DNA of 64,000 nt from contig NC_081387.1 in NCBI RefSeq assembly GCF_030684315.1, positions 10,684,822-10,748,821 on the forward strand. The letters run 5' to 3'. The position numbers and the translations under genes were made by a program. The DNA comes from Stegostoma tigrinum (lineage: Eukaryota). This document shows positions 5,676-54,417 of this stretch, in pieces. Each line of letters starts with the position of its first letter. Positions within the stretch are counted from its first letter, which is position 1. The notes beneath the pieces were generated by a model, which ran no database searches, was not told the DNA's origin, and saw only the letters and a list, made by a program, of their open reading frames with translations.

Positions 5676-5951
5676 GGATCCACTGGTTTCAGCTAATGAC
5701 TGGCTGTGACCTCCGGGAGGATGGCACCACAACTGGATTCTCTCAGTTTGGCTGGGACGGGCAAGATTACATGAAATTTGACAAAGATCACCAAGACTGG
5801 GTCACTACAGTACGGTGGGGAGAGAGCACGAAGAAATGGTGGGAGGACATCAGGGCGTGGAATAATCAGCACTGGAAGTATTACCTGGAGGAGGAGTGCA
5901 TTCACTGGCTGAACACCTACCTGGATTACGGACAGCAGATGCTGAGTACCA
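5676..5951 (+). CDS. MHC class I (non-classical) heavy chain, alpha2-domain exon
   Basis: Acceptor ctaacAG at 5675 and donor GTAAGT at 5952; 276 bp, phase 1/1. Translates (G)IHWFQLMTGCDLREDG...GWDGQDYMKFD...STKKWWE...YYLEEECIHWLNTYLDYG with C101/C164, DGxDY, T143, W147, Y159 and Y171 (HLA numbering). Confidence 0.95.
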
Positions 5952-6278
5952 GTAAGTGAGGGGTTAGGGACACTGAGAGTCGGTGAGCGAGGAAGGTGGT
6001 TGGGGGGAGTGAGAATCATTGAGTGAGGGACGGGGGAGTGACAGTAGGGGAGGGATTGTTGGTGACTGAGCAGGGTGTGAGAATCGGTGAGTGGCAGCCA
6101 AATTGAGGGGGGTGGAAGTGAGTGCCGGTGAGTGGGCGGTGACAAGAGTGTGGGTAAGTGGGGGGGATAATGGAGAAGAGTTGGTGAGCGAGAGTGGGGA
6201 GCGGGTGTGCAGGTCAGTGGGGGTGGGGGGGGGGTGGGTGGGGAGCGAGTGCCGGTCAGTGAGCAGGGTGTAGGTTGG

Positions 6279-7266
6279 TGCTACAAATCGGAGGGTAAAC
6301 CCCCTCCCCCAGAGAACTAAAACTGAAACACCCAAAGAGGAGCAGCTCGTGCCATAATCTGTAAAGGGAGTGTGAGAAGTCATGTAACCTGCTTCTCAGC
6401 AACTTCTAGTGCCTAAATAAAATAAATCCCTGTCACTCGCTTTAAAATTAACAAGTAACAGTTTATTTATCTAACTCTAACAATGAACAAATTAACAAAA
6501 CTATTAACAAATGGAATAAATCCTTTCTAACAACCAACTGTTCCTGAATAAAGCAAGATTCAAATGGTATTCTGTTCTTGTAAATATGATACTCAGTTAT
6601 ATATGAAAAGAAATTTAGTCTCTCGAAACAATAGCCAGGTTACAGGTCTTTTGGAATGTTCTGTGCCTTTTCCCTTGATTCTTTTGTCAGGAATGCTTTC
6701 TCTGTTGATTCTTCTGTCAGGAATATTAACAAGTTGTGCTGTTGGTAACATTATTATTTAGGTGGTGCTTTCCCTAAGACACAGAGGAGGCTTTGGGAGC
6801 CAATAATTCTCTCTCGAGCATTGAGGACCGTTAGCTTTGGCGGATGGCAGCTAGTTTTGGGATTTTTGTCTGACTGCCTCCTTTTTATACCCTTAATGGC
6901 ATATCAATATTTCTTCCAGTTGGATTGGTTCTATGTTCTCAAATCCATCAGACATAAATTTAATTGATTTTTGGCACCGAAGTATCTGGTTCAAATTGAT
7001 TTGGCTAAATTCAAAAGCCTGTTGTCTTGGTTAGCTTGGCCTGCTAACAGTACGGCCTTTTGATACAAATGTTTCAAGCTTGGGTGCTCTCTGTGTATTT
7101 GCAAATTTTCGCGCTGCTGTTCAAAGTTGTCCATTTTAAATCTCTAAGCAAATGTTCCTTAAAGGGGCTGCATAATGCTTCCACTCCTCCACCCCAGCAT
7201 CTTACAAATACCAAATTCTATCTTCCTGCCTCTTAATCCACAAGTACTCTGTCCAACTTTGCAACA
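6279..7266 (-). mobile_element. Solo LTR of a Gypsy-type retrotransposon in the MHC alpha2-alpha3 intron
   Basis: TG...CA termini; reverse-complement similarity to the LTR at 59711-60960. Flanks GTTGG and GTCAG are consistent with a CpG-decayed GTCGG target-site duplication. Confidence 0.75.
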
Positions 7267-7539
7267 GTCAGTGAATGAGGGCAGGGGTGTGTGTCGGTCA
7301 GTGAAAAAGCAAGAGGGTATTGGAAGAGGTGAAGTGGGGAGGTGAGAGTTGTTGAGTGAGGTGGGGAGGCAGTGGGAGTCAGTGCGGGAGGGGGAGGCGG
7401 AGGCGGGAGAGTCGGTGAGTGGGGGAAATGAGGTTCTAAATGGGTGGAGGCGATGCGAGTCAGGGAATGAGGGAGCAGTGAGAACCATGAACTCTCTCTT
7501 GATGCTTCCTGCACTGACTCCTGTTCCTCTCTCCCTCAG

Positions 7540-7803
7540 TTGCCCCCGCCGTGTCCTTTACCCGTCTGGGTGATTCTAACCGGCTGTCCTGTCTCGTTAC
7601 TGGGTTTTACCCCCAAGCCATCGAGGTGACCCTGTGGAGGGATGGAGTATTGGTTGATGAGACACTGTCCACTGGAATCTTACCCAATCATGACAGGACC
7701 TACCAGATCCGGAAATGGATGGAGTTTGATCCGGATGATCAGTCCGAGTATTCCTGTCGAGTGGAGCACACCGGGCTGGAGGACAAGCTGGTGGTGATTT
7801 TCG
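7540..7803 (+). CDS. MHC class I heavy chain, alpha3 (C1-set Ig) exon
   Basis: Acceptor ctccctcAG at 7539 and donor GTAAGA at 7804; phase 1/1. IAPAVSFTRLGDSNRLSCLVTGFYPQAIEVTLWRDG...ILPNHDRTYQ...YSCRVEHTGL carries the C-x3-GFYP, PNxDxTYQ and YxCxVxH motifs. Confidence 0.95.
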
Positions 7804-8729
7804 GTAAGACTGTTTCTCACTGTCTGAGAGGCAACCAGACTCTGGCTAGGATCGTGGGGGTGTGGTGGTGTGGGCCACTGCTAAGTTCTTGATTTAGGAC
7901 AGGCTAGTGATGGGATGGAGCGTGAGAAATAAACATTCACTTCCACGTGTCAACGATATCATACGATTTTTGGACAGTTGTGATTTTAGACTGTTAACCT
8001 AGGATATTGCAGTATGACATGAACCATTGTATCTTGGAGCCCTGTTAACAGACTGTAGCTGGTTGGTGAGATAGAAAGAAGTACACATATTTTCCTCTGT
8101 GCATAGAGTTTACTGTGTTGCTCAGTCTTGCCCCTCGCAATTCAGTTTCACAATTGCTCTGCTCACAGGAAATTGATATGAACCACGAGTTCCTCTTAAC
8201 ATGAACAATATGATTAACCATTGCCAGAATCCCTTCGTTAAATTTAAACTTTCATTGACCAGGTTTTCTAAAACCAAATTGAAAGGCCATGTTTTCTGTA
8301 GAATGGCATTCCACTCTACTCATCTTTCACAGAGCGAAAGAGCTCCTCTTTTCTGAGAGGGCGTACTGATCAGGAGTCTCTTTCAAAAATGCAGAGCCAA
8401 ACTTCCATTCTGATCAGCCCCTCAACTCATAGAACGGTTGACTGAGGGCAAGCCACTCTCCCATTTTCACAGCAGTGTTCTGAAACCAAATATGCTGCAC
8501 AAGAGACAGACACTATGATAAGCTGATACTAAAGGTTAAGTTTGTTAAGGCAAGTGTGGGGCTGGTGTGCAAAGGAAATAGGGTACAACTTAAGTAGGGT
8601 GTCATTTGGGAAAGAGATTTGGGAAGATTGGGTGTCAGGGGATTGAGTGGCATGTGAACAGGATGCCAAGTGGCTAAGGAGCTCGGGCATATGGGGGTCT
8701 AGGCAAGTGATGCAGTGGTTTGGTTGATT

Positions 8730-9200
8730 AGAGTCAAAGAGTTACGCAGCCACGGAAACAGACACTTCAGTCCAACTTGTCCATGGTGACTGAATATCCT
8801 AAACTGTTTTCATCCCATTTGCCAGCATTTGATTCTAACCCCTCGCAACCCTTCCGATTCACGTACCCAGCCAGATGCCTTTTAAATGTTGCAATTGTAC
8901 CAGCCTCCACCACTTCCTCTGGCAGCTCATTCCATATACACATCACCCTCTGCATGAAAAAATTGCCCTTTTGGTGTCTTTTAATTATTTCCCCTCTCAC
9001 ATTTAAATCTATGCCATCTAGTTTTGGACTCCCCCATCCTGGGGGAAAATACCTTAGCTATTCAGGGTATGCACACACCTTTAAGATCACCCTTTGATGC
9101 TCCAGGGAAGATAACCCCAGTCTATTTAGCCTCCTTCTGTAGCTCAAACCCTTCAATCCAGGCAACATTCTTGTACAACATCTTTCCATGCAGCAGTGAG
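8730..9200 (-). mobile_element. CR1 LINE 3' fragment
   Basis: Minus-strand reading FFMQRVMCIWNELPEEVVEAGTIATFKRHL is the CR1 ORF2 C-terminus, followed by a gactct-type tail. Confidence 0.85.
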
Positions 9201-11081
9201 ACCAGAATTGGAGATATTTTGTCCATCGGGTGAGGGTGGAGTAACATGTCATCTAGATTATCCTGGGGGCATTTGAGGACCAAGGGAATTGGGCCTGGAT
9301 GGCATGGGGAATCCGGTCTAATGGTGCATGCAGTAGACAGTGGATAGGATGGGGTTAGACGCACCTGGACAGGGGGTGGTGTTGCATGAATGTGTGAAGT
9401 GATGTCGCAGGAGGTGATATCGGCATTGGGTCAGGATTTGAGATTGTAAAGGGGCTGCCGGGAAGTGTATTTGAGGTGATCTGAAGCCTGTTGGGGAGTC
9501 AATATAATAGTTATCCAGGATTAGAATGGGTCTTTAATCTAGAATCATAGATACCTACAAGGCGTAAGCAGGCCATTCAGCCCATCGAGTCCACACCAGC
9601 CTTCCAAAGACCATCCAGCTCTGACCCGCCCACCCACCTTACCCAATCACTACCTTTCCCATGGCTAATCCTTGTCACCAGCACATCCCTGGACACTATG
9701 GGCAATTAAGAGTCTAACATTTCCTCTGAGTCCCAATTGAATTAACTGCAACAAAACCCTCCAAGTCTCTGATTTGTCTGGAGACTTTCAGAGGGTTCCA
9801 GAAGTACAGGAAATGCCCAGCAGAATCTTCAATTACCCGGCTCAAGTTATCATTGCTATGGTGAGAATTTGCGCCTGGTCATCAGTGCACAGCTCCCATC
9901 GAATGATCTGCCCAGTGGAAAGGCTGGGCTGAAATTGTCTGTCCACTCATTAATGAGTAGGCGATGCTCAGGGTCTGGGTGGGTAGTGGTGAAGTGGAAA
10001 TGGTATTCATGGTCACTCTGTGCCAATAGAGACAATTGGGTTAGGTTCTGGTGGAGGTGACACTGTGAAGCCTGAATCCTGAGGGTTGAGTCTGATGCCG
10101 AACCTGAGAAGGAGGAAAGTTTTCAGACCCGAAAAGAAGAGATTGTGGGCAGGGTTGATGAAGGGGAAATTGTTCTTCATACAGTAGGTGTTTAGAAGGA
10201 ATGCTTCTGGGCTTACGATGGGGAAGGGAGTTGGGAAGATGTGTGCCTGTGCGTGTCTGTGTTGAAGTGTGTGTTCATGTGCCTGTGTCCTGTACACTTA
10301 CCTATGTGTATTCATATTGATGTGTATCTGCGCAGTGGTCGTGTCTCTGCTTGTGTGTGTGTGTGTTTGTGTCTGTGTATGTATGCACACTCGCACGCAT
10401 CAATGTGTGTCAATGTCAGTTTGCTGCATCTGTCAGTGCAGAGCTTCAAGGGAGCAGCAGGGTTGAGGGTTCGGACTATAAGAATCTGGAATGTAAAGGG
10501 GCTGCCGGGAAGTGTATTTTGAATGACTTTTATCGGACCAAGAGAAGCCTCTTTGATCGTGCTCACGTTCTTTCGTATCTGCCTGTGGTTTATTCGTTCC
10601 CCTTCTTCCCAGTCATGAAAAGCTCATTAGAGACGCTATCTGCCGTTCCGAACCAACCCAAAGCCCCTCTTCTGGGCTCAGCAGCGAATTCCATCAGCAC
10701 AGGCCTCTGGTTTCAATCCATGCAAACTCCTACTGCCGTCTGCACCTTTGGCGCAATCTCTCTCTTATTTTCTTCCACCCAGTGTTGGTCACTGTGAGAG
10801 GGATAAAATTGGGTCATTGTAATAAACCTGTCTGGAACCTTGGTTAGATTGCACTTAGATTCAATTGTGAAGATATAGTTAATGTGTAATTCAAACATAA
10901 CAAAAGTATGGAGACACTGGAAGGGGTGTAGAGAATGTGTACAGTGGTAACAGGAATGTGTGGATCTAAATATCAGGACACCATTAACATTCTCAGTCTG
11001 TTCTCTTTCAGGAGCAGATTGGTAATAGAGGCCATTAAAATAACAAAATGTTTTGTTAGCGTGGTGTCTTGGATCACAACA

Positions 11082-11652
11082 TGTATCCAAGCAGTTCTTT
11101 TCCGATTCGGTAAACATAAGTAAGAGAAGGCTCAACTACAATTTGCTTAAATATGAATGTTTATTAAGTAATAATAAACAAGTACAATGGTAAAAATAAG
11201 TGGAAGAGAAAAGGAAGAAAAGCAAGTCTCATGCCCTCCTGTCCGTCAGGGGCCCCTTGATCAATGGCTGTACCAGAGGCTTCAGTTTGTTCCTGGCACC
11301 ATTCACAATGCCAAGCTAAGGCGAAGCCCTGCCCTTTGGAATGAAACACTCTCTCCCTTATACAGTGTAATGAACATCCAGCACAAAGAAAGCAGATCAA
11401 AAAGACAACACTGCTGCTTGGCTCAGAAATACAGGATGGGAAAACAAGCGCAGGTGTCATCTCCACCTCGGGAGGGAACGTACATAGGACCTATTCAAGG
11501 TCATGCAGCTCGTCAACAATTATTCTCAACTTTCCCATCCCGTGTAGTCTATTTTCCCACACAGCTGTCGAATATCATCATCACCTTTTAGTCCTTCAGC
11601 CCATTCTATCCACATGGGTGCAACGTGAATGCTTCCTCTTGATTTGAGCACA
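11082..11652. mobile_element. Solo-LTR-like repeat (second copy at 41529-42307)
   Basis: Both copies start TGTATCCAAGCAGTTCTTTT and end GAGCACA, with colinear internal similarity. Confidence 0.6.
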
Positions 11653-11825
11653 GAACACTGGTTAAACATCATTGCCGATTCGAGGGAATTTAAGAGAAAG
11701 TTATATATGCAAGGAGGAAATCCAGAGGGAGTGGTTGAATAGGATAGTACAGATGCGTTCATGGTGAAACTAAGCAGCAATACAAGGGAGAAGGGAGTAG
11801 TTAATTATGCTGCTATGGTTCTGTT

Positions 11826-12125
11826 GACGGTGGCTCAGTGGTTAGCACTGCTGCCTTACATTACCTGAGTTCAATCCCAGCCTTGGGCAACAGTCTGTGT
11901 GGAGTTTACATATTCTTTCTTTCTCTCTCTCTCTCTGTGAGTTTCCTCTCGGTGCACCAGTTTTCTCCTACAGTCCAAAGATGTACAGGTTAGGTGGATT
12001 GGACGTTGAAAATGATGGGTTACAGAGGTAGGATGGGATTTGTGTATGAATCAGCTTCTGTTTGGAGGGTCAGTGCAGACCCAATGGGCTGAATGGCCTC
12101 TTTCTGCATTGTAGGCATTCTGTGT
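11826..12125 (+). mobile_element. HE1-type SINE
   Basis: CGGTGGCTCAGTGGTTAGCACTGCTGCC head, GTTCAATCCC B-box, ACAGTCCAAAGATGTACAGG body. Confidence 0.8.
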
Positions 12126-12261
12126 GAAATTCACATGAGTTTAGTTGGGAGGGGGCCTGAGTGGAGCTTAGTCACTAGAACTATAATAAGTGGGTGGAAT
12201 GATCTGTGTAATCCTTATTCCCTGTCTCAGGCACATTGTGCCTCTCCTCTCTGTCTTACAG

Positions 12262-12366
12262 TGCTAGAGTTTCACTCCCAGGTTTTTGTTGCTATTGGGA
12301 TTTTACTTGGAGTACTCATAGTCATCACAGTCCTTCTCACAGTTGTCATCATCTACAAAGAGAAAG
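12262..12366 (+). CDS. MHC class I connecting peptide/transmembrane exon
   Basis: Acceptor tcttacAG at 12261 and donor GTAAGA at 12367; phase 1/1. VLEFHSQ-VFVAIGILLGVLIVITVLLTVVII-YKEK is a hydrophobic helix plus basic stop-transfer, in frame with alpha3. Confidence 0.9.
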
Positions 12367-13242: not shown

Positions 13243-13510
13243 AAAGTCATTGAGATGTACAGCACAGAAACGGACCATTCGTTCCAACTCATCAATGCTG
13301 ACCAGATATCCTCAATTAATCTAGACCCATTTGCCAGCATTTGGCCCATATCCCTCTAAACCCTTCCTCTTCACGTACACATCCAGATGCCCTTTAAATG
13401 TTATAATTGTACTCAGCTCCATGACCACCTCTGGCAGCTCATTCCATATATGCATTACCTTCTGCATGAAAAAGTTGTTCCTTCAGTCTCTTTTATATCT
13501 TTCCCCTCTC
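13243..13510 (-). mobile_element. CR1 LINE 3' fragment
   Basis: Same tail as 8730-9200 (ATGCCCTTTAAATGTT...CTCTGGCAGCTCATTCCA). Confidence 0.8.
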
Positions 13511-13927: not shown

Positions 13928-13960
13928 CGAGAAGGAAGAGTGACTACATCACTACACACA
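13928..13960 (+). CDS. MHC class I cytoplasmic exon 1 (exon-6 equivalent)
   Basis: Polypyrimidine tract + ttacAG at 13927 and donor GTAAGC at 13961; 33 bp, phase 1/1. Encodes ARRKSDYITTH with the class I tail Tyr. Confidence 0.85.
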
Positions 13961-14086
13961 GTAAGCTGAATGTGAACTATCCTTTGGATCTCTGTGTGGC
14001 CATATCAATGTCCATTCTGTGACTGAAACACTCAACTGCTGATTCTCCTCTGTCCATGTGTCTCTCTCTATCTCGATATCTCTGAC

Positions 14087-14112: not shown

Positions 14113-14193
14113 AGACACTTCCTGTTGCCCCTTGTGTCTTGTGTGCTGGATGTGATGTTGAAAATTTTTAATACCTCCTCCTTCCATTAACAG

Positions 14194-14240
14194 CTTCTGA
14201 TGATTTGATGTCCTCAGTGAGTTCCGTCGCCAGTTCCTGA
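14194..14240 (+). CDS. MHC class I cytoplasmic exon 2 with stop codon (exon-7 equivalent; exon ends at 14241)
   Basis: Acceptor ccattaacAG at 14193 and donor GTATGA at 14242; 48-bp exon encoding TSDDLMSSVSSVASS* (TGA at 14238-14240), a Ser-rich class I-type tail. Confidence 0.8.
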
Positions 14241-26122: not shown

Positions 26123-26186
26123 CAGGAATGCCAATGACTGCAAGAATTGTATAATATGCTTTCTTGATAGTGAGAAGCGTTTCCAT
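26123..26186 (-). CDS. GPR139-like gene A, exon 1
   Basis: ATG at 26186; METLLTIKKAYYTILAVIGIP + G|GTAAGT donor (26122). Phase 1 joins exon 2 in frame within TM1 (GIP-V-NLL). Confidence 0.88.
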
Positions 26187-41528: not shown

Positions 41529-42307
41529 TGTATCCAAGCAGTTCTTTTCCGGTTTGGGTAAATAGAATTAGGAGTAGCCTCGAACACAGCAATTTGCTTA
41601 AAAATAAATACTTATTAACTGAGAATAATGATTATAATGGCAAAAATAAAGGATAACACTGGTATAATAAATTGGAAAGGGGAAAAGAAAGCAACAATAC
41701 TCAAGGCCCTCTATAAAAAAACAAGGCTCGTGCTCTGCTGACTGTCGGGGCGCCCTCACTCGATGGCTGGCCGAGAGGCTTCGATTCGTTCTCAGCGCAT
41801 TTCACGATTCCGAGGCGAAGCGAAGTCCGGCAGCAACAGCTTGGAACGATAATTTCTCTCTTATGCAGTGTGGCAAACAGCCAGCATAAGTAAAGCAGAT
41901 ACAGCAAGACGGATCTGCTGCCTGGTACAGACCACACAAGAGGGGGAAAGACAACGAAAAAAAAACTGCAAATGCTGTAAATCGGGAACAAAACCAGAAG
42001 TTGTGAGAAAACTCAGCAGGTCTGGCAGCATCAACAAAGAAAGAAAATCTTTTGAATTAACGTTTCGAGTCGGGCGACCCTTCCTCCGAACGGGGAGAGA
42101 AAACACGTGCAGGTGTGATCTTTGGCTGGTACAGGAATATTTGCAGGACTCATTCAGGGTCATGCAGCTTTTTAAGTATTATTATAAACGTTCCCAGCAT
42201 ATCCCCCCATCCTGTCCAATCTATGCTGAATGCATCATTAACATCTGGCCCTTCGGCCCATCCTATGTTCGATATTTGAAGAGACCGCTGTTCTGAAAAC
42301 GAGCACA
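41529..42307. mobile_element. Solo-LTR-like repeat (same family as 11082-11652) with a nested Penelope-type fragment at ~41965-42100
   Basis: Shared termini and internal blocks with 11082-11652. Confidence 0.6.
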
Positions 42308-42902
42308 TCAGCTGACTGAATGGTGCAAACATTCGTATTTCTCTCATTAAAGTCGGAACGAATATGTTGTTGTGTAATAACTAAAACAACATCACATGAG
42401 GGGATTAAAATAAAAATTCAGTGACGAGATGTAAAACTGCATTTCTCTTGGCCACAGTGGTTGCAGATTGAGTAACTGCGACATCAATGAATTAGAGATG
42501 TTTCTTTTCCTTTTGAGGTATTAGCGGCTTCAGCACCGGCAGCGGATTGAATGGTCACATTCTGCACCCGGTCAGTGTCAGCGGGGGCCGCTTCAGCGTG
42601 CTTCCTCTTTGGTGTTGTGGCCTCAGAGACAGCTTTGGTGGCTGTGGAGAGAGATGCATCCCGCAGCTTCTCAGGAAATCAAAAAGCTGTGTATGGGGCA
42701 AACAATGGAAATTTGACCTAAAGTTATATAATTTGTTTCCTTCTATAATTTTTGAAATTAAAATGGTGATTTGTACATATTTTACGGCATTTTCATAAAT
42801 TCATGTGACAATAATTTACTTTTATTATTATCCTGACTGAAGACAGTAAGAAAGGCAGGACAAGATCACTTATAGAAATAATAGCTGAACATTAAGACTC
42901 AC

Positions 42903-42983
42903 TAGAACACCGGCAGCAGCAATGAGAGGATTGTAAATCTTTGCTGAATCGGCAGAGAAACGATAAAACATCAACTGATCCAT
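42903..42983 (-). pseudogene. Orphan exon 1 of a third GPR139-like gene
   Basis: ATG at 42983; MDQLMFYRFSADSAKIYNPLIAAAGVL then GTGAGT donor (42902-42897). Aligns with gene B exon 1 (EKIYYPLLGTIGVA). The donor is phase 0 instead of 1, and no matching exon 2 was found by eye. Confidence 0.65.
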
Positions 42984-43439
42984 ATTGATGAAGTGATCCA
43001 ATCCTTTTAAGGATGGAAGTTATCCTTCATCTTTATCACATTGCGTGATACAGCATACGATACAATATATGTCGCTGAAAAAATTAAAACTTTCCAGAGA
43101 TCCAACTCAGTTCTGTGGATTCTGATAAATTATCCTCAGTCAATGAAATATGACCAGGAGGAATTGTGCACTTGAAAGGCCTGAAATGATCCCAAAGTAC
43201 ACATGCCCTGAAACCAAGATAATCCTGTTTGATTGTATTCCACTCTGTGAGGTGATGATTTATTCCTTGCGGTTAACTCTGTTTTAGGAATCTCCTGGTT
43301 TGACTGAAATGACAGTCGCTGGCACTTCTGATAAAACTGAGGAATATCGGTCATGTGTAAGGGTACTCAGAGCCGATGGATTAACTGCAATTGGTGATGA
43401 AACAATGGGTCTGTAACATTGCAGAAAGTCATTTAGTAG

Positions 43440-43870
43440 ACGCCCTGTGTTTTTATGGAGAGGCTGTGTAGACTGGGGGTTTTTCTCCTTGTAGCAATGG
43501 AGGCGAAGGCGAAGAGATTTATGAAATCACGAGGCGCATGGATTGGGTGATTACTCAAGGCTTTTTTTTCCGAGGGTGGAGGAATCCAAACTCGTGGGCA
43601 TAGGTTTAAGGTAAGAGGGGAAAGAATTAAAAGAGATTCTGAGACGTAACCTTGTCACACAGAGGGTGTTGCGTGTCTGGAAAGAGCTGCCGAATGAAAT
43701 GGTAGAGGCAGGTACAATTACAACATTCAAAAGGCATCTGGATGGGGATGTGAAAAGGAAGGGTTCAGAGAGATATGAGCCAAATGCTGGCAAAAGGGAC
43801 GACATCAGATTGAGATGCCTTGAGTTAGACTAAAGGGTCTGTTTCAGTACTGCATGACTCTTCGACTCTA
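43440..43870 (+). mobile_element. CR1 LINE 3' fragment
   Basis: GAGCTGCCGAATGAAATGGTAGAGGCAGGTACAATTACAACATTCAAAAGGCATCTGGA and gactct tail. Confidence 0.8.
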
Positions 43871-45999
43871 TATGAACTGTTAATGCTCAGTCCCGTGACA
43901 ACATTCAGTCAGTTTTCTCATCCAGGAACATGTTCCCAGGATCCCTCTTCGTTTTGCAGTGTCAATGGGTAATGATGCTTTCAGTTCTGGTTTTCAAAAG
44001 AAATACATGTTCACACTTAACTGGTAGAATTAACTGCATGATCAGCCTGGAACGTCAATGGTACCGCAAGTCTTGTTCCTATCCATTTAACATGACGTTA
44101 ACTTTAATCTTTCTTGATTATGAGCCAATTTAAGGCTCAGGAACTCAATTCAGTTTGCCGTGACAAAAAGGAAATAACTTAGAGGTTCTCATGATAACTA
44201 CTATGGTAAAATTCAGAGTTTACAGAATACTTCAACAAGATGGAACAAAGTCCATTCAAAACCCTTTATTCTAAATTTCACAATTCTCACTCATTTCAAT
44301 CTTGAGCCTCATATACCCTTCGCCAAACAGGCTTCCATTATTTTAGAGGACGTTTTGCTTACCTTTGAAAAATAGAATGAGAAAGTCAAATTCAAATTCA
44401 ACATTTTAAAGACTATTGTATTCTCTGTGCTTCACATTCCAGTTCCTTCGTCTCATGCACTGATTTGTTAAAGGAAAAATCACGTGACTCTTCGAACACT
44501 CGATCCAATGATTTAAAAATCAAATTAAGTAACTTCATTGTGTTACATATCTAGATTCATCTGTTTCTTTTTTAAAGCAACGTTTTACACATGCAGTCAA
44601 TGCACCTGATTATGGAGGACGCCCGGACAGATAAAGTTAGCTACTGCAAACTGACTTCATGCAATTTGAACACGTTACGACGCGACAGCAGAGAACACCG
44701 AGTTGTTCTATACTTGCAAATATTGCATTGACCTTCCGGATTGAGAGAATTGAGTTCAATCCATTTGTTTTCAATGCTGAGATGTAACAGAAAACAGCAC
44801 AGCACAGTTGAACAAATATGCGGCGACCACTTTTAACAAAGGACAAATTCACCTAAATAAATACAGAAGTTGCCGGAGAAGTTCAGCAGATCTGGAAGCA
44901 CCTGTGAAGAGAAGTCAATGTTAATGTTTCGGGTCGGTGACCCATCCTCAAAACCGAACCTGAAGCGTTCTTTTGGACTTCTCTCCACAGATGCTGCCAG
45001 GCCTGCTGAGGTTTTCCAGCTATTTCTGTCTTTTTATTCACAGCATCCGCTGACTTACAGCGTCCGCCGTTCCTTCAGTTTTGATTAAACTCTCCGAGTA
45101 GGCAATGCAGTTTCTTCATCACCATGTTAATCTTCGATCGCACGAATTTTCATGTATCATCTTTTAAACTTCAGGATTGACCCATTATTATGTTTTAGTT
45201 CGGTACTTCAATTATATATGAATCATTTCGGAACATTTTTGAAACTCATTTCCAATTCTGGTTTCTCCTCTAATCATCTGATCAGCTGAAAGTACTTCTA
45301 TCCACATTCTCTCTACATGTAACTTCAGCATCATTCTATCCTTGGGATCCAATGTTGAGCAATTTTTGAACCCAGCAATCTTGTTTTGTTTTGTTCTATT
45401 GCTACTGAAAATGCGAAAGGGAGACCCTGGTAACTCTATATCAGTGGCCTGAGGGACACGATGTTTGTATCACCGTGCACGCGGGACAGCGGACTGGACT
45501 CTGCGAACCTGTGTCACACGTCCTGGTCAGAGAAAATTGATCAATCATTTCCGGCATGATTGATGTCCAGGTTGGGCCGGAGTGCAGTAGTGGAGTGACT
45601 GGAAGCAGACAGTGTCCATGATATGAGTATATATAAGATGCTATAAAGACCAATTTATCAATATTGAAGTATCTGATGGTGAAAAGATATACCACATTGA
45701 AATCTACACTGGTCCTGACTGAGAATAGATAGACTATACTCTGTCAGTATCATTGGGCCTAAGTGAGAACAGACAAAGCACATTATGTCTGTGTCATTGT
45801 CTCTGGAGCAGAGCAGGCTACTTTGTTGTTTCTGCATGGAAGAGGTGGGAAAGCGCACCCAATATCTGCATTATTGAAACTCCAAAATCCTATGGGGTGA
45901 CAGAGAGTTTGCTGAGAAGAATGACTGCATTTCTTGTACACAATGGTTAAGATATTAAATTAAAATTGATTTCTGATGCCTTGAGTTCATCAATGGCTC

Positions 46000-48308
46000 T
46001 CATCGGAAAATATATCTTGCAATTTGAGAAAAGGGATATTTGACCACACTCTTCAACTGCTCTCTGAATTTAGTTTGGATTATGGCATAAATGCACGTAT
46101 TTGTGCAGCAACTCAGGAGCTGAAGCATGTTTCCTAATCTGCCAACAAAATGAGGTGCAATTGCAGACACTTAACCTGAATACCATAAATGAGCCCACAC
46201 TGAAGATACAATATGTACTGCCCACAAAAATATGAAATTTCCTGAAATTGAAAATAATAAAATAATAGATTTCATTCGGTTCTCAATCTCTGTGTCTCTG
46301 TAGCTCACTGTTTTGCTCTGAGCCCGGAGTCTACTGCGTGCTTTATTGGAGACCAAAATGTGCCTGACAGTAAAACCATTGAGCAGAAGAATCACAATAA
46401 ATGGGAGACATGGAGTTACAGTGCTTTGAAGCAACTCGATTATAATCCGCTGCCATATATCAAAAACATCAAATGTTGTTTGACAAAACCAAGGTAAGTT
46501 CACAAGTAAATACCGGCCTGTGAATGAAAAGTACCACACCGTGTTTTTTTAAAAAGTTCAACACAGTCACAGTTCCAAGAACCACAGCCACAGTTTTCTC
46601 TGTGCAATACTTAGTTTTCAGTCTCTGGTAGCAAATGGCCATAAATCGATCAAACGTGAAAGTGACAGTGAACCACACTGAACAGTCTGTGGCTGCAGAA
46701 ACAAAACATGCGTGGATATTGCACACAGGTAAGGATTTCAAAAAATTAAAGCGTTTCCAATAAACAATAGGAATCTGCCTCAAGATCAGGTCGGTGATAA
46801 GCACGATTAGATCTGCTGCTGCCATGGCCACCAGATAATGACTTACACTTTGGAGAGGCCACACTTTCCCCGTGATAAGATCCCAATCGTCACTGCGTTA
46901 ACTGAAAGGAAGAGAAAAAAATCAGGTATATTAATCACCTGCTCGATATAATGCTATAAGGCTCTCTGATTAATTATAATATCCATGGAAATATATTAAT
47001 AAATCTGTCATATTGTTAACTGCTGTAAACGGGACCTGAATTAAGTAAATTCTCAATTATATCGAAGTGTTTATTTATGGGGATAAAACAAAATGGCTGA
47101 AAAGCATATTATAGATTCAATAAAATGATTGCAGTTCTGACAAATGTTTCCCTGTATTTGCAAAATAAAGAATATCATTTTCATATATAATATAGTGCAG
47201 AAGAGGTAGACTGCAATCTGATGATGCAACATTAAGCTCAATGCTGCCAGCTTAGAGTCGAAGTTAAAATTCATAAAATTCATAAAAAACATAAAATTGC
47301 ATCAAGAGAAAATATTCTCCTTGAAGTCAGATGGAAGAAGAAAATGGACAAATTTCCTGCAGTTCGAAAAGATGCATTATTGAATCAGCAAAATCTTTTT
47401 CATGCATCAAATGTTACGTTCGACTTGCACCGGCTCAGTGGTGGAGGCAGGAGCAGTGCGAACAGGATTAAGGAGAAAGCAGACTTTTATCCAAAATGGA
47501 TGAATATTCTGCAATGCACAGACAGTAAAGGTAATGATACCAATTTTACTAAATTAACTCATCATAACCTTATGTAAATAATGTCACTGATGGAAAACAG
47601 ATTTCAAGTCTTTTTTTTCAATGACGTGAGACATCTGAAGTTCTTCTTCCTGTTGACACGCAGCTATGGGTATGTACATGAAGGAGTGCACACAATAAAA
47701 TACCGAAAAATTACCTACTTCAACAAAATACCATCTTGTATTTTTTTTACAATACGGAGATAAAGTGAACAGCAAATTAGTGCTTCCACGATCTTACGGA
47801 CTCCCTGACCTGTAAAATATTTTGGCGTCATATTACATCAAATCATTGATTGGAAAGGAGTACACGGAAAGTCGAAAGTAAATACTTTTCAAGGTAAATC
47901 ACTTTTATTATGATACCACATTATAGACAGTACGAAAAATCGGTGTGATATCAAGATGCTATCGAATGAGCTGACTTCAGAAACATTAGAGTGCGGCTCT
48001 CGACACACTCTGCACACGCTTGTCTGATCAGAGAATCAAGTATCTGTTTCTTCAGATGGACATATTAACTGGTGAAACGTTGAAAGTGATGATATGCAAT
48101 TCATTCCACTCAAAATACTAAAGCAAGTTCCTCCTGAGAATTATTCGCTAGATCTATTGATGTGACATTGTAACAACAGCAACAGAATGGAATACATTAT
48201 TTAGGAATTCATGTCTGCTTCCAGAAACTTACCAGCAACACCAATAGTACCAAGGAGAGGATAGTAAATCTTTTCTATTTCAAAAATGAAGAAAAATATC
48301 TCGTCCAT
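46000..48308 (-). pseudogene. GPR139-like GPCR gene B pseudogene (exon 1 48308-48233, exon 2 46901-46000)
   Basis: Exon 1 MDEIFFFIFEIEKIYYPLLGTIGVA+G|GTAAGT. Exon 2 VNAVTIGILSRGKCGLSK..YLVAMAAADLI..SVWFTVTFTFDRFMAIC..LLSCCTNTCIYAIIQTKFREQLK..*. Lesions: 1-nt deletion at ~46848 giving an immediate TAA, +1 in the A7 run at 46550-46544, and an in-frame TAA at 46173-46171. Confidence 0.9.
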
Positions 48309-48388
48309 CACACTATAACTCGTTTTTCATCCTTGCACTTTCTGAAAAGCCGTTGATCATTATTCATGCTGGTGACATTGAAACATGG

Positions 48389-48456
48389 TTTATAAATAGA
48401 AGTGGAAATCCCTTTGGTGATTGTGATAAAATCCTTGGAGGCTGGCATTAATTTGC
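48389..48456 (-). promoter_or_regulatory. Putative core promoter of GPCR gene B: TATTTATAAA plus upstream GCAAATTAATG motif
   Basis: TATA at 48398-48389 on -; motif at 48456-48446. Confidence 0.5.
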
Positions 48457-49849
48457 GTTCATGTTGAAAAACAACATGAGACAATTCAAACAAAATAATC
48501 ACAATGGATTTATGATGATAAAATTTATTAAAAACACAAAAATGTCTGAAAACTAAAACCGTTTCAATTGAGAAGCTAAGGACAGTACGAAGGGAGCACA
48601 GACAGGGGTTTGGTGGAAGGACAGACAACGATGTTACTTCTTGTCTATTCACAGAATAACTCCTGTGCTGTGGGATATCTGCAACGACATTCCAATTTCA
48701 ATGGCTGGCTTACCATCCTGAGAAATCTTTCCAAAGGATGACACTGTCAAGATCACCACCAAAAATGAAAGTCAGCTCAGATCTAATGGTTGGTTATACG
48801 GTAAGAATATTGTCTACCGAGGATGATGCAATGGAAAGATGTATTTGATTGGCAGTTATGATCATGAGCCCTGTATTGGGGCAAAAGGAGGCGAACAAAA
48901 CCTAGAATAATGTCATCCAGCCAAGCCCTATTGAGATGGAACTACTCCATATTCTGTTCCAATTCCATATCTCTCTCCTTCACATCCATTACGTTTCTGT
49001 GGCACATCTGAGTAGAATCGAAAAAAGACCCCTTCTGAGCCCAGGTGTTTCAATTCTCAAGCATTCTCCATCTGCTAATTCAGCAATTGCATTGATTGGA
49101 ATGGGGTGGTGGTATTATCTGGACATTAAATCCTTGTGAAATGCCCTACTAGCAAATAATTGTGCATTAAATGTTGCAAAATAGCTATGGGGCACATTTT
49201 CTGGTGAACCACTTCTCACCATCGCCCAGACACAGCAGGATGTCAAAATAAAAACAAAGGTTCCATATTCTAAAATGAACTCCCTTTCTCACCCACCCAA
49301 CCCCTCACAGGACCAGGAAAATTCCAGAAACAGAATGAGTTCTGTATTGGTGAGTTCCCTTCATCATACAGCACAAACCATCCCCAAACACCCCGCCCAA
49401 TGTCCATCTCACCAACAACACTACACCCCTTCCCGCACAAAGCACTGACACATGCACACAGCAACATTTGTCTACCTCAAACTCACTCCTCCAACTGTGC
49501 ATTAGCATTATCGGCTTTGTAGCGTCACTGACTAGTTCCAGCTAAGAAATCTGAGCTTCAGTTGATTCACATCCCAGTAATGTCAAATGTTTGTTATTTG
49601 AATGTGAAAGTCTTCAGAGCCACACTAGGCACTCTCATAACAAGGAGTCAACTCTCTGCTTAGTTTTTTGAGGGTCACTTTCATTGTGAACCCAGGACAG
49701 GAAATGAGACCACAATCCTGACAAGTCATCCAACCAAACAGCTAACTGGGCTAACCGACACTTAACTCTCCAGTTGGCTGATCCAAAAAAGGTTTCTTTG
49801 TTCGTTTTCCAAACCTATCATTAGGAAAAGTTGAAAGTAACTGATTCAC

Positions 49850-50980
49850 TTTGGGACAACATGGTATCGACGTGTCTGTACACAGCAGACCAAGTAGCAT
49901 CAGAGGAGCAGGAAATCTGACGTTTTGGCTCTTGGCCCTTCTTCAGAAATCGGAGAGGGGAAGGGAATTCTGAAACAAATAGGGATAGAGGGGAAGGTGG
50001 ATAGAAGATGGATGAAGCAGAAAATTGGTGGAGAGGAGATAGACAGGTCAAAGAGGTTGGGTTGATGCCAGTGAAGGTGAATGTATTAGGGGATTTAGGG
50101 AGGGGATAGGTCGGTCTACGGAGGACGGACAGGTCAAGGAGGCAGAATGACGTTTGTGGGTAGAAGATGTGGATGGGGCTTGAGGTGGGAGGAATGGCTA
50201 GAGAGGCAGGGAGTAGCTCAGCTGCTTTTGGGATGCAGTAGTAGGAGGGGAAATTTTGAAATATGAGATACTGCTCCTGCAGCTTTCCGGCAGTGTCATT
50301 GTGGCACTGAGCATAGCAGTTCCTCCTATCTCTGCAGCAATTTTAATGCCAGTGCAAAGCATCTTCTCAGGATGATTGCAAAACATCTACAGTCAGTTTG
50401 CAACAAACAAATACACCTCCCAGTCGGGAACCATTTCAAGTCCCGCTCCCACTCCTTGGACGACATGTCCATCCTGGGCATCCTGCATTGGCACAGTGAC
50501 ACTACCTGAAAGCTGCAGTTTCAGCATCTCAGATTTCGCTTGAGAAACCAACAAATTGATGTATCAATGTAGACTTCACAAGTGTCAAAATCTCCCCGAA
50601 ACCGACTGTATCCCAAAACAAGCTCCACCCCCGTTTCCTACCTAACTACTCAACTCATCCCGCCTTCTTGAACAGTCTGTACTCTCTGGATCAACAGGAC
50701 CCCTCCCTAACTCCCCACCTACATTTGCCTTCACTGGCTCCAATCCCGCCTCTTTGACCCGTCTGTCTCCTCTCACCCTAGCTTCTCCTTCATCCATCTT
50801 CAATCCGTCTCCCCCTCTATAACTCATTATTTCAGAATCCCCTTCCCCTCCCACATTTCTGAAGAAGGATCGCAACCCAAAACATCAGCTTTCTTCCTCC
50901 TCTGTTGCTGCTTGGCCTGCTGCATACATCCAGCTCGATACCTTGTTATCTCAGATTCTCCAGCAGTTCCTATTATCTCT
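49850..50980. mobile_element. Older Penelope-like element: inverted pseudo-LTR (~49850-50310) plus GIY-YIG end and pseudo-LTR (~50405-50980)
   Basis: Degenerate homology to 31290-31880 in both orientations. Confidence 0.7.
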
Positions 50981-53001
50981 GCCAGTTGTGGATTTGCTGG
51001 TGATCTGTCCTCCCCGAGAGATCCAGCTCCAGACCATGCTGCCTCATTTTAGAGAATATCAGACCAAACCTGACAGTCAATCAAATAGGTGGAAGGCAAT
51101 TGATGGAAAGTTTTCAAGAAGGTGGGCCTCAGGGAAGTGGGCATGCTGCCAACAGGCATCAAACAAATATATTCGTTTTGATTTCCACTCAGCAACCTCA
51201 CAGGAAGGAAGTCACTGCTGCGTGGAAATCAACCATCAGAGGCCCAGATCCTTGTTCCACTCATTGATACTTCTCAGCAATGGCTGCAGACATTTCATGA
51301 TGTTAAAGCTGTGGGGAAAGAATGTGGGCAGTCGAGGAAGGTTTATCAACAGGAGAAGGGAGATGTCATCTAATATTTATTTTTCGCCCCCACCACTGAC
51401 GGAAAGTCACTCATCCTGTCACCAAATGCCTTTTGAATTGTGAAGCCCAGAGAATAGTACCTGAAGTCACACCGGGTTCAATTCTTATATTCCCCACGTC
51501 GCTATACAAGTGTAGATGACTGAGGATTCAAACACCTATCACCCACCCAATAAAAACCTCACGCACACCCCCAAACCCTGCCGTTTCTGAACACAACATG
51601 GAATGAGGTAGATCAATCTGACCAAGGCCAATTTCTGGGAATTGACATCCCCACACGCTCTGGATTCTGATTCCAGGAGGTGCACTCTATTCATGAGTTC
51701 TCAGTTTTGTGTCCCTGATCATTTCTGAGCAGGAGTGTTTGAGCCAGTAGCTTCACAGTCATGTGGGATTTCTCTCTTTTGTTTCGAAGCACAAATAGAC
51801 AAAACATGTTGATTCCTCAGCTAATGTATTTTACTTGCAACTAACATCAAAGTACACGATGTTCGAATAACAGTTATGTTTCAACTACAAGCCAATATCA
51901 TCGAAAAGTTTGTATTATCGACATTTATGTTCCTATCTGGATCATAAACGTGTATTTGTTGCCATATCTTTAATACATTCTGCATTTTGTTGCTTTGCTC
52001 TCTCCACTGTGAAGCTGTCTTACACTTTAGGTGTAGTGGAGCTGTGTTTTCCTAATCTGAATATTATTTGTTCAGAAGGAACTGCTGTATTCTATGAATC
52101 GGGATTCATTCAAATTTTGGTGGGGAAATATCTCTGCTATTGACTTAATCCATCAACTCAACACACAGGGAACAAAAACAAGCTTGATAGCTGGCACAAC
52201 ACAATAAAATGTCAGGAACATGGACGAGCATTTGTCACAGTGTCCAAGTTTCATTCCATACCTTCAGGCTCTTTGTGACAATCAGAGCATTTCCAATATT
52301 CCACGGATTCTAACTGCACACATTTTACACAAATATGGTGGATTATTATCAATAACTGAATGCTTAATTCGTTGGTTTTATGTTCTTATTCAAGTGAGGA
52401 TTATTTTAATGCTAATGAAGATGAGTAATTCATTTGAGGAGCCAAACAGATGCATTGACATCAGGCTAATCCCACATGACTGTGAACAATTAGGAGAGCT
52501 CTTCTTTTAATTTCCAAAGACTCTTTCTGAAATAAGGAATTAGCTATTATCAAAATACCTAAAAGACATTTGCTATAAACATTCAAAGAGTGTACGATGA
52601 TGAGAATGTCATGTCATTTAATGATTTGAAGATAGTGGATCTGTTCTGTGACACTTTAGGAAGGCAGTGATAGCTTGTTAATGAGCACAATATCATCAAA
52701 TGAAATATTCTCACAGAACAACTTTATGCTGTATTCGATGATGCGTAAATAATAGGTAAGTTTACCATCTCATTCCTTCAAAAATCTACTCGAATAAGTA
52801 GCATCAATTTTACCAACAGGAAGCATACGAATCAGTTGTTATGTTTAAAACGTCATTCAGATCTTACATATAAGTGTCAACTTGATACATAATCGGGCAC
52901 AATTAAACTAAAATCCTGCTGTACATTTGAATATAAATGAAGGAAAATCAAGTCAACGATATTTCTGAAAAGTGCACAAAATTATACTCGTAGCTTTTCT
53001 T

Positions 53002-54417
53002 TCATTTTGTTGTATCGATAATTTTGTACTTGCATGAGAGAAGATTCTTGAAGGTTTTCTTGAAGATGGCATTGCACAGAGCATAACAGACTGGGTTGAT
53101 GGTGCTGTTGATGTAACAGAGCCAATATCCAATGGTCCACATTGTGTCAGGGATACAAATTGAGCAGAAAGTGCTCAACACCATCATGACATTGTATGGG
53201 GTTCCACTAATGATGTATGCAAGGATGATAGCTAGTATGGTTCTGGTTACCTGATGCTCTCGAGATTTAGATACTTTCTTCGATGTATTCCTGTTTATGT
53301 TAACTAAATTATGGCCAGTTCTTATCATTGGGACATTCCTTTTATTCCTGTTGATATTTGGGAGTATTCCTGCTGGGTTGCCACAGTCCACATCTTTTTC
53401 AAATTTACAAATTCCCTTCATTGAGAAGCAATTGGAGTTGTCAATCCGAAAATAATTTTGTCCCACATAAACGCTTGTTTTGCCTTGGATTGCTTCTTCC
53501 TGATTCTCATTCGCAGGCAATGCATTGAGAGAAGTTGAATCATTATTGAGCTCATCTTGATGACTTTGGTCATAGCCATCACCTGTCAATTGATCGGGTA
53601 TTTTGCCACTTTGCGCTTGATCATGCAGAGGCACAACAGGAATTGTTGGAATTCTGTTATTATTTGTTTTTGCTATTTTTTCTTTCACTGGGCTAGAAGA
53701 AACTGTGGAATTACTTGTTTCAGGTGCTGTTTTATCCTGTTTAATTCGGCATTTGCTTGCACGAGATATGAATGTGTACAGAGTCACCATGATTATAGCA
53801 GGGAGATAGAAAGAAGCTGTACCGATACTGAGAGTGACAGCAGGATTTGAGAAGAATTGTACATAACACTCACCTTCGTTAACTGTCCGCTCCCCTACGA
53901 TGTACTGCCAGAAGATAATGGGCGGCGCCCACAGGATAAATGGCAATCCCCAAGCAGCTGCAATCATCATCAAGACCATCTTCGGTCTTTCCTTCACAGG
54001 GTAGTGAACCGGCTTTGTCACGCAGAAGTAGCGATCAAGGCTGATCATGAGGAGGTTCAAGGAAGAGGCATAGCTGACAACATAATCTACAGCAAGCCAG
54101 AAATCACATGCCACTGGACCCAGCGGCCAGTATCCAACCACAATGTAAACGGTGTATAAGTTCATAGAGAATGCACCAATAATGAAATCCGCACAGGCTA
54201 AGCTGAAAATAATGTAGTTATTAATAGTTCGCAAATGTCTGTTGACTTTGATAGATACTAGGATCAGAATGTTTCCAACAATGGTCACCAAACTTAGAGA
54301 TCCTGCTGCAATAACAATGAAGACCATTCCCACTGTATTACAGGAACTCCCTCCTGCAACATCAAACAATCCATTAGTGCTGCTGTGAGATTCATTTGTC
54401 TCCATTACATTGGTCAT
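53002..54417 (-). CDS. CHRM2: Muscarinic acetylcholine receptor M2-like (divergent paralog), single coding exon, 471 aa
   Basis: GSLSLVTIVGNIL..SIKVNRHL..FSLACAD..GYWPLGPVACDFWLAVDYVVS..DRYFCVTKP..ECYVQFFSN..VTRTILAI..WTIGYWLCYINSTINP.CYALCNA.FKKTFK. ICL3 is M2-like (NNN, NDSTS). The acceptor tttcatgcatttAG at 54449 places the first usable ATG at 54417. Confidence 0.93.
   Translation of the reverse strand: MTNVMETNESHSSTNGLFDVAGGSSCNTVGMVFIVIAAGSLSLVTIVGNILILVSIKVNRHLRTINNYIIFSLACADFIIGAFSMNLYTVYIVVGYWPLGPVACDFWLAVDYVVSYASSLNLLMISLDRYFCVTKPVHYPVKERPKMVLMMIAAAWGLPFILWAPPIIFWQYIVGERTVNEGECYVQFFSNPAVTLSIGTASFYLPAIIMVTLYTFISRASKCRIKQDKTAPETSNSTVSSSPVKEKIAKTNNNRIPTIPVVPLHDQAQSGKIPDQLTGDGYDQSHQDELNNDSTSLNALPANENQEEAIQGKTSVYVGQNYFRIDNSNCFSMKGICKFEKDVDCGNPAGILPNINRNKRNVPMIRTGHNLVNINRNTSKKVSKSREHQVTRTILAIILAYIISGTPYNVMMVLSTFCSICIPDTMWTIGYWLCYINSTINPVCYALCNAIFKKTFKNLLSCKYKIIDTTK

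What the first reader, a model, noticed from the sequence alone, without database searches (positions are those of the whole stretch)
5676..54417. Non-classical MHC class I gene tightly linked to a diversified GPCR cluster
Seen: the class I gene converges tail-to-tail on GPCR gene A (stop codons about 9 kb apart), followed by more GPR139-like units and the odd M2-like gene. No TAP, PSMB or class II genes are recognisable in the window. Established: rodent class Ib M1/M10 molecules are co-expressed with V2R chemoreceptors, and OR clusters flank the extended MHC of several tetrapods. Inference: this may be an independent shark instance of a class Ib + sensory GPCR supercluster (co-regulation, chaperoning or shared ligands). 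It may instead be a duplication-prone region that simply collects multigene families.
Basis: inference. Interest (0 to 1): 0.7.

Follow-up and report, generated by a model that had tools for sequence, protein, structure and literature searches.

The report
Receptor array inside the shark MHC
An intact non-classical shark immune gene (MHC class I, UBA family) sits inside an array of duplicated receptor genes that includes about 18 altered copies of the normally single M2 acetylcholine-receptor gene, a layout likely shared with white shark and catshark, but the immune gene keeps the promoter sequence of its immune-gene siblings and was not copied along with the receptors, so the closeness is likely inherited position rather than a working partnership.

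Summary
The adjacency is real: the stop codons of the class I gene and GPCR A are 8,875 bp apart. The class I gene is an intact, divergent UBA-lineage Ib gene with orthologues in four other carpet sharks. It lies at the edge of the published UBA cluster of the shark MHC, 9.4 Mb from the class Ia/PSMB8 region. The linkage is not an assembly quirk. CHRM2-derived copies and class I genes share a chromosome in 9 of 9 other galeomorph sharks and 0 of 2 testable rays, and gene-length matches place them between COL11A2 and C4/UBA in white shark and catshark. A partnership like rodent M10/V2R is not supported. GPR139-like genes are a genome-wide family (230 of 268 sampled loci lie off the class I contig). 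The class I gene is outside the seven-fold [M2-like + GPR139-like] cassette. Its promoter matches its UBA siblings (z about 16) and none of 7 GPCR promoters. The large Ib cluster has 10 class I loci and 1 broken GPCR in 400 kb. No expression data were obtained. The noteworthy part is the MHC-embedded expansion of CHRM2 copies with remodelled pockets, not found in nine literature searches.

The parts
5676..5951 (+). MHC class I (UBA lineage) alpha2 exon; leader ATG and alpha1 exon lie outside the window at G000:C44:10667765 and 10672566-10672829
   Evidence: PF00129 E 2e-22; splice ends; upstream exons
7540..7803 (+). class I alpha3 (C1-set) exon, 83% identical to nurse shark UBA
12262..12366 (+). 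class I transmembrane exon
   Evidence: match to P0121 residues 284-320; splice ends
13928..13960 (+). class I cytoplasmic exon
14194..14240 (+). class I last coding exon with stop codon
23115..24001 (-). GPCR A (GPR139-like family) exon 2, open, converging on the class I gene
   Evidence: PF00001 E 5.5e-23; best PDB hit human GPR139 at only E 1e-9
26123..26186 (-). GPCR A predicted exon 1 (21 codons + 1 base, GT donor), in frame with exon 2, giving about 316 aa
46000..46901 (-). GPCR B exon 2, pseudogene (two frameshifts, one in-frame stop); 5 open B-type copies lie in the cassettes beyond the window
48233..48308 (-). GPCR B predicted exon 1
53002..54417 (-). CHRM2-derived M2-like receptor, single coding exon, 471 aa; keeps D3.32, Y6.51, N6.52, Y7.39, Y7.43; changed at N3.37Y, V3.40S, T5.42I, A5.43G, A5.46S, W6.48G; splice acceptor 31 nt before the ATG. 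An orphan GPR139-type exon 1 lies 10.3 kb upstream, 786 bases beyond the window end
41700..64000 (-). first unit of a tandem cassette [orphan exon 1 > M2-like exon > B exon 1 > B exon 2], 7 M2-bearing units at 27-37 kb spacing (one further B-only unit), long blocks 84-96% identical; does not include the class I gene

Best explanation
The class I gene is an intact, divergent UBA-lineage class Ib gene at the edge of the known UBA cluster of the shark MHC, and its closeness to the receptors is likely inherited position, not partnership. Shown: (1) UBA membership, gene structure, and a proximal promoter homologous to its UBA siblings; (2) GPR139-like genes are a very large family spread over many contigs; (3) the M2-like genes of C44 and of other galeomorph sharks form one clade nested in shark CHRM2; (4) the local amplification unit is [GPR139-type exon 1, M2-like, GPR139-like B] and excludes the class I gene. 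Inferred: GPR139-like arrays were already in the MHC of the shark-ray ancestor. One copy of the CHRM2 coding exon then landed behind a GPR139-like gene between COL11A2 and UBA/C4, before carpet, mackerel and ground sharks split. It likely took over that gene's promoter and first exon as a leader, and spread by unequal crossing-over. The class I gene is likely run as an ordinary immune gene from an S-X-Y-type promoter and likely presents a restricted ligand (6 of 8 peptide-anchor residues kept). The M2-like copies likely remain Gi/o-coupled amine receptors with shifted ligand choice.
For: UBA: alpha3 71/86 = 83% to nurse shark UBA against 47-66% to UAA-type sequences; in the tree it falls in the UBA-containing group, as a 5-species carpet-shark clade with SH-aLRT 100 (lineage label from the supplement of PMC10751288). 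Map of C44: classical-type gene 1.10 Mb and PSMB8-like exon 1.24 Mb; large Ib cluster 5.5-7.1 Mb; fibrillar collagen C-terminus 8.01 Mb; M2-like 9.38-10.96 Mb; UBA-type 10.67 and 11.06-11.17 Mb; thioester-domain exons 11.44 and 12.02 Mb. This matches the published UBA cluster flanked by c4 and rxrb. No co-duplication: 664 kb holds 15 GPR139-like, 7 M2-like and 5 class I loci, and none of the class I loci lies in the cassette run. Promoter: class I against 2 of 2 UBA siblings scores 74 and 69 (z about 16), against 0 of 7 GPCR exon-1 upstream regions above the shuffle maximum. Control: 400 kb of the large Ib cluster holds 10 class I alpha2 loci, 1 frameshifted GPR139-like gene and 0 M2-like. 230 of 268 GPR139-like loci returned by two searches lie off C44, on about 54 contigs without a class I match (hand count). 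M2 tree: 40-row clade, SH-aLRT 99; ray duplicates fall outside it. 14 of 16 M2-like copies examined have a same-strand GPR139-type exon 1 within 20 kb upstream (one with a changed donor), against none for CHRM2 itself and none in 4 control strands.
Against: The arrangement has persisted across three shark orders. White shark even shows a lone MHC-Ib gene separated from the main UBA group by M2-like-sized genes, as here; long conservation can reflect function as well as slow rearrangement. The class I gene is flanked by GPR139-like genes on both sides: head to head at 5.9 kb and tail to tail at 8.9 kb, so distal enhancer sharing is possible and a 500-bp promoter comparison would not see it. GPR139-like arrays also sit between Ib groups in sawfish (10 genes at 13.38-13.68 Mb). 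This one UBA gene has strongly remodelled alpha1/alpha2 domains (50-59% to UBA) yet is 77-93% conserved among carpet sharks, which points to a specialised partner of unknown nature. The trees are quick IQ-TREE runs without bootstrap, and support for the UBA grouping is moderate (81-86). The promoter-capture step has no RNA support here, and 2 of 16 M2-like copies showed no such exon within 20 kb.
Confidence: 0.75

Rival explanations
1. Functional partnership like rodent M1/M10 with V2R: the divergent UBA molecule is co-expressed with the neighbouring GPCRs in sensory neurons and escorts them to the surface or hands them ligands.
For: Conserved linkage in three orders; GPCRs on both flanks; a conserved, remodelled groove in this one gene; receptor pockets diversified under purifying selection.
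Against: One class I gene against hundreds to thousands of receptors, most on other contigs. No co-duplication. The promoter is UBA-like. The groove keeps 6 of 8 anchors, including Y7, Y171 and R84, whereas M10.5 has lost Y7 and Y171 and has an open F pocket. The receptors are class A, not class C. From recall, mouse V2R genes are mostly not next to M10 genes, so the analogy does not predict linkage.
Confidence: 0.07
2. Shared regulatory neighbourhood without physical partnership: the M2-like or GPR139-like genes next to UBA are expressed in immune or barrier cells under MHC-region enhancers, for example as cholinergic or amine sensors of leukocytes, and the linkage is kept for that reason.
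For: Head-to-head spacing of 5.9 kb between the class I leader and a GPR139-like first exon; persistence of the interval.
Against: No sequence shared between the proximal promoters. Rays amplified CHRM2 off the MHC chromosome in 2 of 2 testable species, so amplification does not need MHC context.
Confidence: 0.15
3. Assembly artefact or species-specific accident.
For: The cassette copies are up to 97% alike at protein level, so the exact copy number could be mis-assembled; about 21 kb of the 664 kb read N.
Against: Orthologues of both genes share a contig in 9 of 9 other galeomorph sharks; gene order matches catshark and white shark; the window holds no N.
Confidence: 0.02

Closest known systems
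Elasmobranch MHC-Ib UBA cluster (Verissimo et al. 2023, PMC10751288; nurse shark UBA = P0158)
   Same: Lineage by alpha3 and tree; separate from the class Ia region and the large Ib cluster; next to C4-like genes; F59 at the Y59 anchor.
   Different: This gene is a separate carpet-shark sub-lineage (alpha1 50%, alpha2 59% to UBA). It keeps T143 and Y159 that nurse shark UBA lacks, has W at 146, has a 17.7-kb alpha1-alpha2 intron, and stands 370 kb from its siblings. The paper's main text has 0 mentions of GPCR, muscarinic, GPR139 or CHRM.
Rodent H2-M1/M10 with V2R receptors (PMC1174912, passages read)
   Same: A non-classical class I molecule near, or with, a diversified GPCR family.
   Different: M10 is a multigene, VNO-restricted family with lost A/F-pocket anchors, paired with class C receptors. 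Here there is one gene with most anchors kept, class A receptors, and no expression evidence.
Olfactory-receptor clusters of the tetrapod extended MHC (recalled, no call)
   Same: A birth-and-death GPCR array lodged in or beside the MHC and inherited with it, without shown functional coupling.
   Different: Different receptor families (GPR139-like and CHRM2-derived), and placed between COL11A2 and UBA/C4 rather than in the extended class I end.
Vertebrate CHRM2 (Pedersen et al. 2018, PMC6298421; PDB 6U1N)
   Same: Single coding exon, nested in shark CHRM2 in the tree, D3.32 and the tyrosine lid kept, VTIL-type Gi/o motif in TM6 kept (motif label recalled).
   Different: 17 full-length open copies plus one shorter open frame on C44, besides the canonical CHRM2 on C22. 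That paper's abstract states that no non-tetraploidization duplicate was found in any vertebrate; 'shark' occurs once in its text. All 17 C44 copies scored from the tree set, and an 18th added, differ at 2-10 of 24 pocket and switch sites that are invariant in the five canonical receptors of this genome.
GPR139 / GPR142 (human; PDB 7VUG)
   Same: [quoted passage not shown]
   Different: Only E 1e-9, 41 bits; hundreds to thousands of copies; orthology not tested.

Membership tests
Shark MHC-Ib UBA lineage | Groups with nurse shark UBA in sequence and tree | tested here: met
   alpha3 83% vs 47-66% to UAA-type; inside the 29-row UBA-containing group (SH-aLRT 86), quick tree of 54 rows
Shark MHC-Ib UBA lineage | Lies on the MHC chromosome, away from the Ia region, beside C4 | tested here: met
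   C4 identity rests on thioester-domain exons only; RXRB not located
Shark MHC-Ib UBA lineage | Low polymorphism or restricted expression | not testable with these tools
   the four runs found are one sample; no RNA holder listed
Classical class Ia (UAA) | All eight peptide-terminus anchors kept (numbering recalled) | tested here: not met
   Y59F and K146W; Y7, R84, T143, W147, Y159, Y171 kept (alignment)
Classical class Ia (UAA) | Tight linkage to PSMB8/9 and TAP | tested here: not met
   PSMB8-like exon 9.4 Mb away, beside another class I gene with classical anchors; TAP not searched
M1/M10-V2R type system | Class Ib expressed only in the receptor-bearing sensory neurons | not testable with these tools
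   no RNA holder listed; catshark atlas supplement unreadable
M1/M10-V2R type system | Class Ib family that multiplies with the receptors | tested here: not met
   single copy outside the cassette
M1/M10-V2R type system | Loss of A-pocket tyrosines and an open F pocket | tested here: not met
   Y7, Y159, Y171, R84 kept versus M10.5
M1/M10-V2R type system | Physical interaction or surface escort of the receptor | not tested
   no complex prediction sent; bench test needed
CHRM2 muscarinic receptor | Descent from CHRM2 | tested here: met
   40-row clade nested in shark CHRM2, SH-aLRT 99
CHRM2 muscarinic receptor | Invariant orthosteric and switch residues | tested here: not met
   6 of 24 sites changed, including W6.48G
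CHRM2 muscarinic receptor | Activation by acetylcholine through Gi/o | not testable with these tools
   sequence only; D3.32 and the TM6 motif are kept
GPR139 orthologue | Single-copy, closely related to human GPR139 | tested here: not met
   E 1e-9 only; at least 268 loci; no tree built

The most novel reading that the evidence does not exclude
Sharks evolved, independently of rodents, an MHC-encoded chemosensory module: a specialised UBA-derived class Ib molecule, conserved across carpet sharks, is co-expressed with and escorts the neighbouring GPR139-like and CHRM2-derived receptors, and the whole block is inherited with the MHC haplotype.
Probability: 0.07. Interest if true: 0.88.

Novelty: new variant of a known kind. 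Interest (0 to 1): 0.47.

Why it matters
If the best explanation holds, the class Ib/GPCR adjacency is a by-product. It still adds an undescribed block to the elasmobranch MHC map: a CHRM2-derived receptor array in the COL11A2-UBA-C4 interval, shared by three shark orders. It is also a counter-example to the published statement that muscarinic receptors were never duplicated singly in vertebrates. The naturally mutated pockets (W6.48G with N3.37Y, and parallel changes in stingray duplicates) are a ready-made panel for muscarinic pharmacology. If the partnership reading held, it would be a second, independent origin of MHC-assisted chemosensation and would bear on MHC-linked mate choice.

Tried and rejected
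Expression: the run search with the M2-like exon gave 'no RNA holder listed', which is no evidence either way. Laying runs X1-X4 on window 5600-7900 showed alpha2 pieces without differences, but the four runs are one sample, and the alpha3 differences are likely paralogues, so polymorphism is untested. Continuity between the class I gene and GPCR A in independent reads was not obtained. The class II beta family search rang nowhere, controls included: uninformative. The supplement of the catshark atlas PMC11979771 could not be read and may hold expression values that bear on the main question; the 8 supplements of PMC13188829 had 0 hits for six terms. The first exon-1 pattern search found nothing; looser versions worked. 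'M2-like nested in GPCR B's intron' was considered and dropped, because B has its own exon 1 at 48308. 'In-frame fusion of the orphan exon 1 with this M2-like exon' was dropped for the window copy: the donor is phase 1 and the acceptor needs phase 2, so it would act as a leader with a short upstream frame, although database models P0110 and P0005 join such exons in frame for other copies. No structure or complex prediction was run, since neighbourhood alone is not a reason. The careful M2 tree did not finish; the quick tree was used, without two C44 loci (10.372 and the broken 10.211). The class I tree used 54 rows chosen, not all 80 hits. Near-place and word look-ups in earlier findings were empty.
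Full report
Observation. The window is G000:C44:10684822-10748821; C44 is 31.9 Mb. It holds the alpha2, alpha3, transmembrane and two cytoplasmic exons of an MHC class I gene on the + strand. The leader and alpha1 lie 17 and 12 kb upstream of the window. The spliced product is database protein P0121, labelled zebra shark. GPCR A is an open two-exon gene on the - strand, and its stop is 8,875 bp from the class I stop. GPCR B has two frameshifts and a stop. The M2-like gene is an open single exon of 471 codons.

The class I gene. Its alpha3 is 83% identical to nurse shark protein O19479 (P0158), whose alpha1 matches by eye the UBA query in the supplement of PMC10751288, against 47-66% to UAA-type sequences. 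In a quick tree of 54 rows it falls in the UBA-containing group (SH-aLRT 86). It forms its own clade (100) with orthologues from whale, epaulette and two bamboo sharks, which are 77-93% identical in alpha1/alpha2, while other UBA genes are about 45-61%. It keeps Y7, R84, T143, W147, Y159 and Y171 and differs at Y59F and K146W (numbering recalled; alignment). The 500 bp before its ATG aligns with the same region of 2 of 2 UBA siblings tested (scores 74 and 69; shuffle maxima 38 and 34) and with 0 of 7 GPCR exon-1 upstream regions. The shared block carries a TGACTCA and two CCAAT-type boxes, which I read from recall as the X2 and Y boxes of an S-X-Y module.

Place in the MHC. All 36 of 36 MHC_I matches in the genome are on C44. 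A class I gene with classical anchors lies at 1.10 Mb and a PSMB8-like exon at 1.24 Mb. The large Ib cluster spans 5.5-7.1 Mb. A fibrillar collagen C-terminus, taken as COL11A2, lies at 8.01 Mb. UBA-type loci lie at 10.67 and 11.06-11.17 Mb, and thioester-domain exons, taken as C4, at 11.44 and 12.02 Mb. Verissimo et al. describe a separate UBA cluster flanked by c4 and rxrb. The absence of TAP, PSMB and class II from the window is therefore expected.

The GPR139-like genes. GPCR A matches human GPR139 only at E 1e-9. Two searches found 4,523 and 4,267 first-look candidates and scored 133 and 135 non-overlapping loci. By hand count 38 of these 268 are on C44 and 230 on about 54 other contigs that have no class I match; both samples favour the queries' own neighbourhood. 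In 400 kb of the large Ib cluster there are 10 class I alpha2 loci, 1 frameshifted GPR139-like gene and no M2-like gene.

The M2-like genes. C44 carries 17 full-length open copies, one shorter open frame and several broken ones between 9.38 and 10.96 Mb; CHRM2 proper is on C22. In a quick tree of 81 rows, these copies and M2-like proteins of carpet, mackerel and ground sharks form one clade (40 rows, SH-aLRT 99) nested in shark CHRM2, while ray duplicates branch separately. The window copy keeps D3.32 and the tyrosine lid but has N3.37Y, V3.40S, T5.42I, A5.43G, A5.46S and W6.48G. All 11 of 11 rows of its clade, from five species, lack W6.48 and carry N3.37Y. dN/dS in the 7TM core is 0.14-0.32 for all but the three closest pairs, which give 0.39-0.78 on very few changes. 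The window holds the first of seven M2-bearing cassettes [orphan GPR139-type exon 1, M2-like exon, B exon 1, B exon 2], with long blocks 84-96% identical. Of 16 copies examined, 14 have a same-strand GPR139-type exon 1 within 20 kb upstream: 9 with no exon 2 in between (one with a changed donor) and 5 as part of a whole or broken gene; 2 have none, nor does CHRM2. Promoter capture is inference; no RNA supports it here. The class I gene is not part of the cassette.

Conservation. Using printed contig lengths as a chromosome proxy, M2-like and class I proteins share a contig in 9 of 9 other galeomorph sharks: whale, epaulette, two bamboo, basking, white, starry smoothhound and two catsharks. They do not in 2 of 2 rays with chromosome-scale placement of both (sawfish, giant manta); two stingrays were uninformative because their extra copies are on small scaffolds. 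The sawfish MHC gene list has no muscarinic entry. In the catshark list, unnamed genes of 1,425, 1,383 and 1,419 bp lie at 33.40-33.55 Mb between MHC-Ib genes (32.1-32.4) and COL11A2 (34.3). These spans equal exactly the 474, 460 and 472 aa M2-like proteins plus stop. In white shark a 1,404-bp gene, equal to the 467-aa M2-like P0227, lies between a lone MHC-Ib gene and the MHC-Ib group before C4; a second gene of 1,362 bp does not match its 447-aa candidate exactly. These identifications are by length and are inferred. For horn shark, sevengill and sawshark only CHRM2 proper appeared, but only 120 of 837 hits were listed, so absence is not shown.

How it most likely works. GPR139-like arrays likely seeded the MHC early, as they did many other chromosomes. 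One CHRM2 coding exon then likely landed behind such a gene in the COL11A2-UBA interval of a galeomorph ancestor, borrowed its promoter, and multiplied with it. One UBA gene, separated from its siblings by this growing array, diverged in its groove but kept its promoter. The two systems are likely neighbours with separate control (0.75). Shared enhancers or immune-cell expression of the receptors remain open (0.15); an M10/V2R-like escort role is possible but has no positive evidence (0.07).

Literature. Nine searches gave no paper describing a shark CHRM2 or GPR139-like expansion or its MHC linkage; the library lacks most subscription papers, including, as far as these listings show, the Almeida class I lineage papers. 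Seen: PMC10751288, main text parts 1-3 of 7, one term search, supplement parts 1, 5, 10, 15, 18, 97, 98 of 98 and three supplement searches; PMC6298421, PMC1174912, PMC6523485, PMC11979771 and PMC10620051, passages from term searches; PMC13188829, supplement search only; all others, search listing only. The supplement of PMC11979771 was unreadable and may bear on expression. Pedersen et al. state that no non-tetraploidization muscarinic duplicate was found in any vertebrate; the shark array contradicts this.

Verdict. Observation confirmed; interpretation partly supported. A real, conserved, apparently undescribed receptor block inside the shark MHC, most likely positional. Interest 0.47; new variant of a known kind.

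Noticed in passing
P0016, P0040, P0074, P0084 (stingray CHRM2 duplicates): Independent CHRM2 duplicates in stingrays show the same pocket changes as the window's clade (N3.37Y, A5.43G, in two also A5.46S): parallel evolution in two separate expansions.
   Followed up: partly
G000, many contigs: One thioester-domain (C3/A2M-type) exon recurs in more than 100 near-identical matches (127 scored of 422 candidates), many on small scaffolds and near contig ends; possibly an exon carried in a repeat or a large A2M-like expansion.
   Followed up: no
G000:C44:10672829-10690497: The alpha1-alpha2 intron of this class I gene is about 17.7 kb, against about 0.2-0.55 kb in its UBA siblings.
   Followed up: no
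G000:C44:10878754-10880166 and 10371882-10373288: Two open M2-like copies have lost the DRY arginine (R3.50H, R3.50W), suggesting non-signalling or decaying receptors.
   Followed up: no
G000:C44:11170764-11171470: A broken UBA-type class I gene (three stops in alpha1, frameshift in alpha2) ends the UBA cluster.
   Followed up: no
P0110, P0005: Database models of other M2-like copies begin with a GPR139-type first exon joined in frame to the muscarinic exon; whether RNA supports these models is unknown.
   Followed up: partly
window 5676-5951: The alpha2 helix has a one-residue insertion and extra tryptophans around positions 146-150, kept in all five carpet-shark orthologues shown or scored; may shape an unusual F pocket.
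   Followed up: no
window 6216-7293: A high-copy interspersed repeat fills most of the alpha2-alpha3 intron (summed contig depth in the thousands).
   Followed up: no
G000:C13 73-87 Mb, C10 0-4 Mb and many unplaced scaffolds: A very homogeneous GPR139-like subfamily (312-aa frames, 60-62% to the B query) fills most of the 135 rows, suggesting a recent mass amplification.
   Followed up: no
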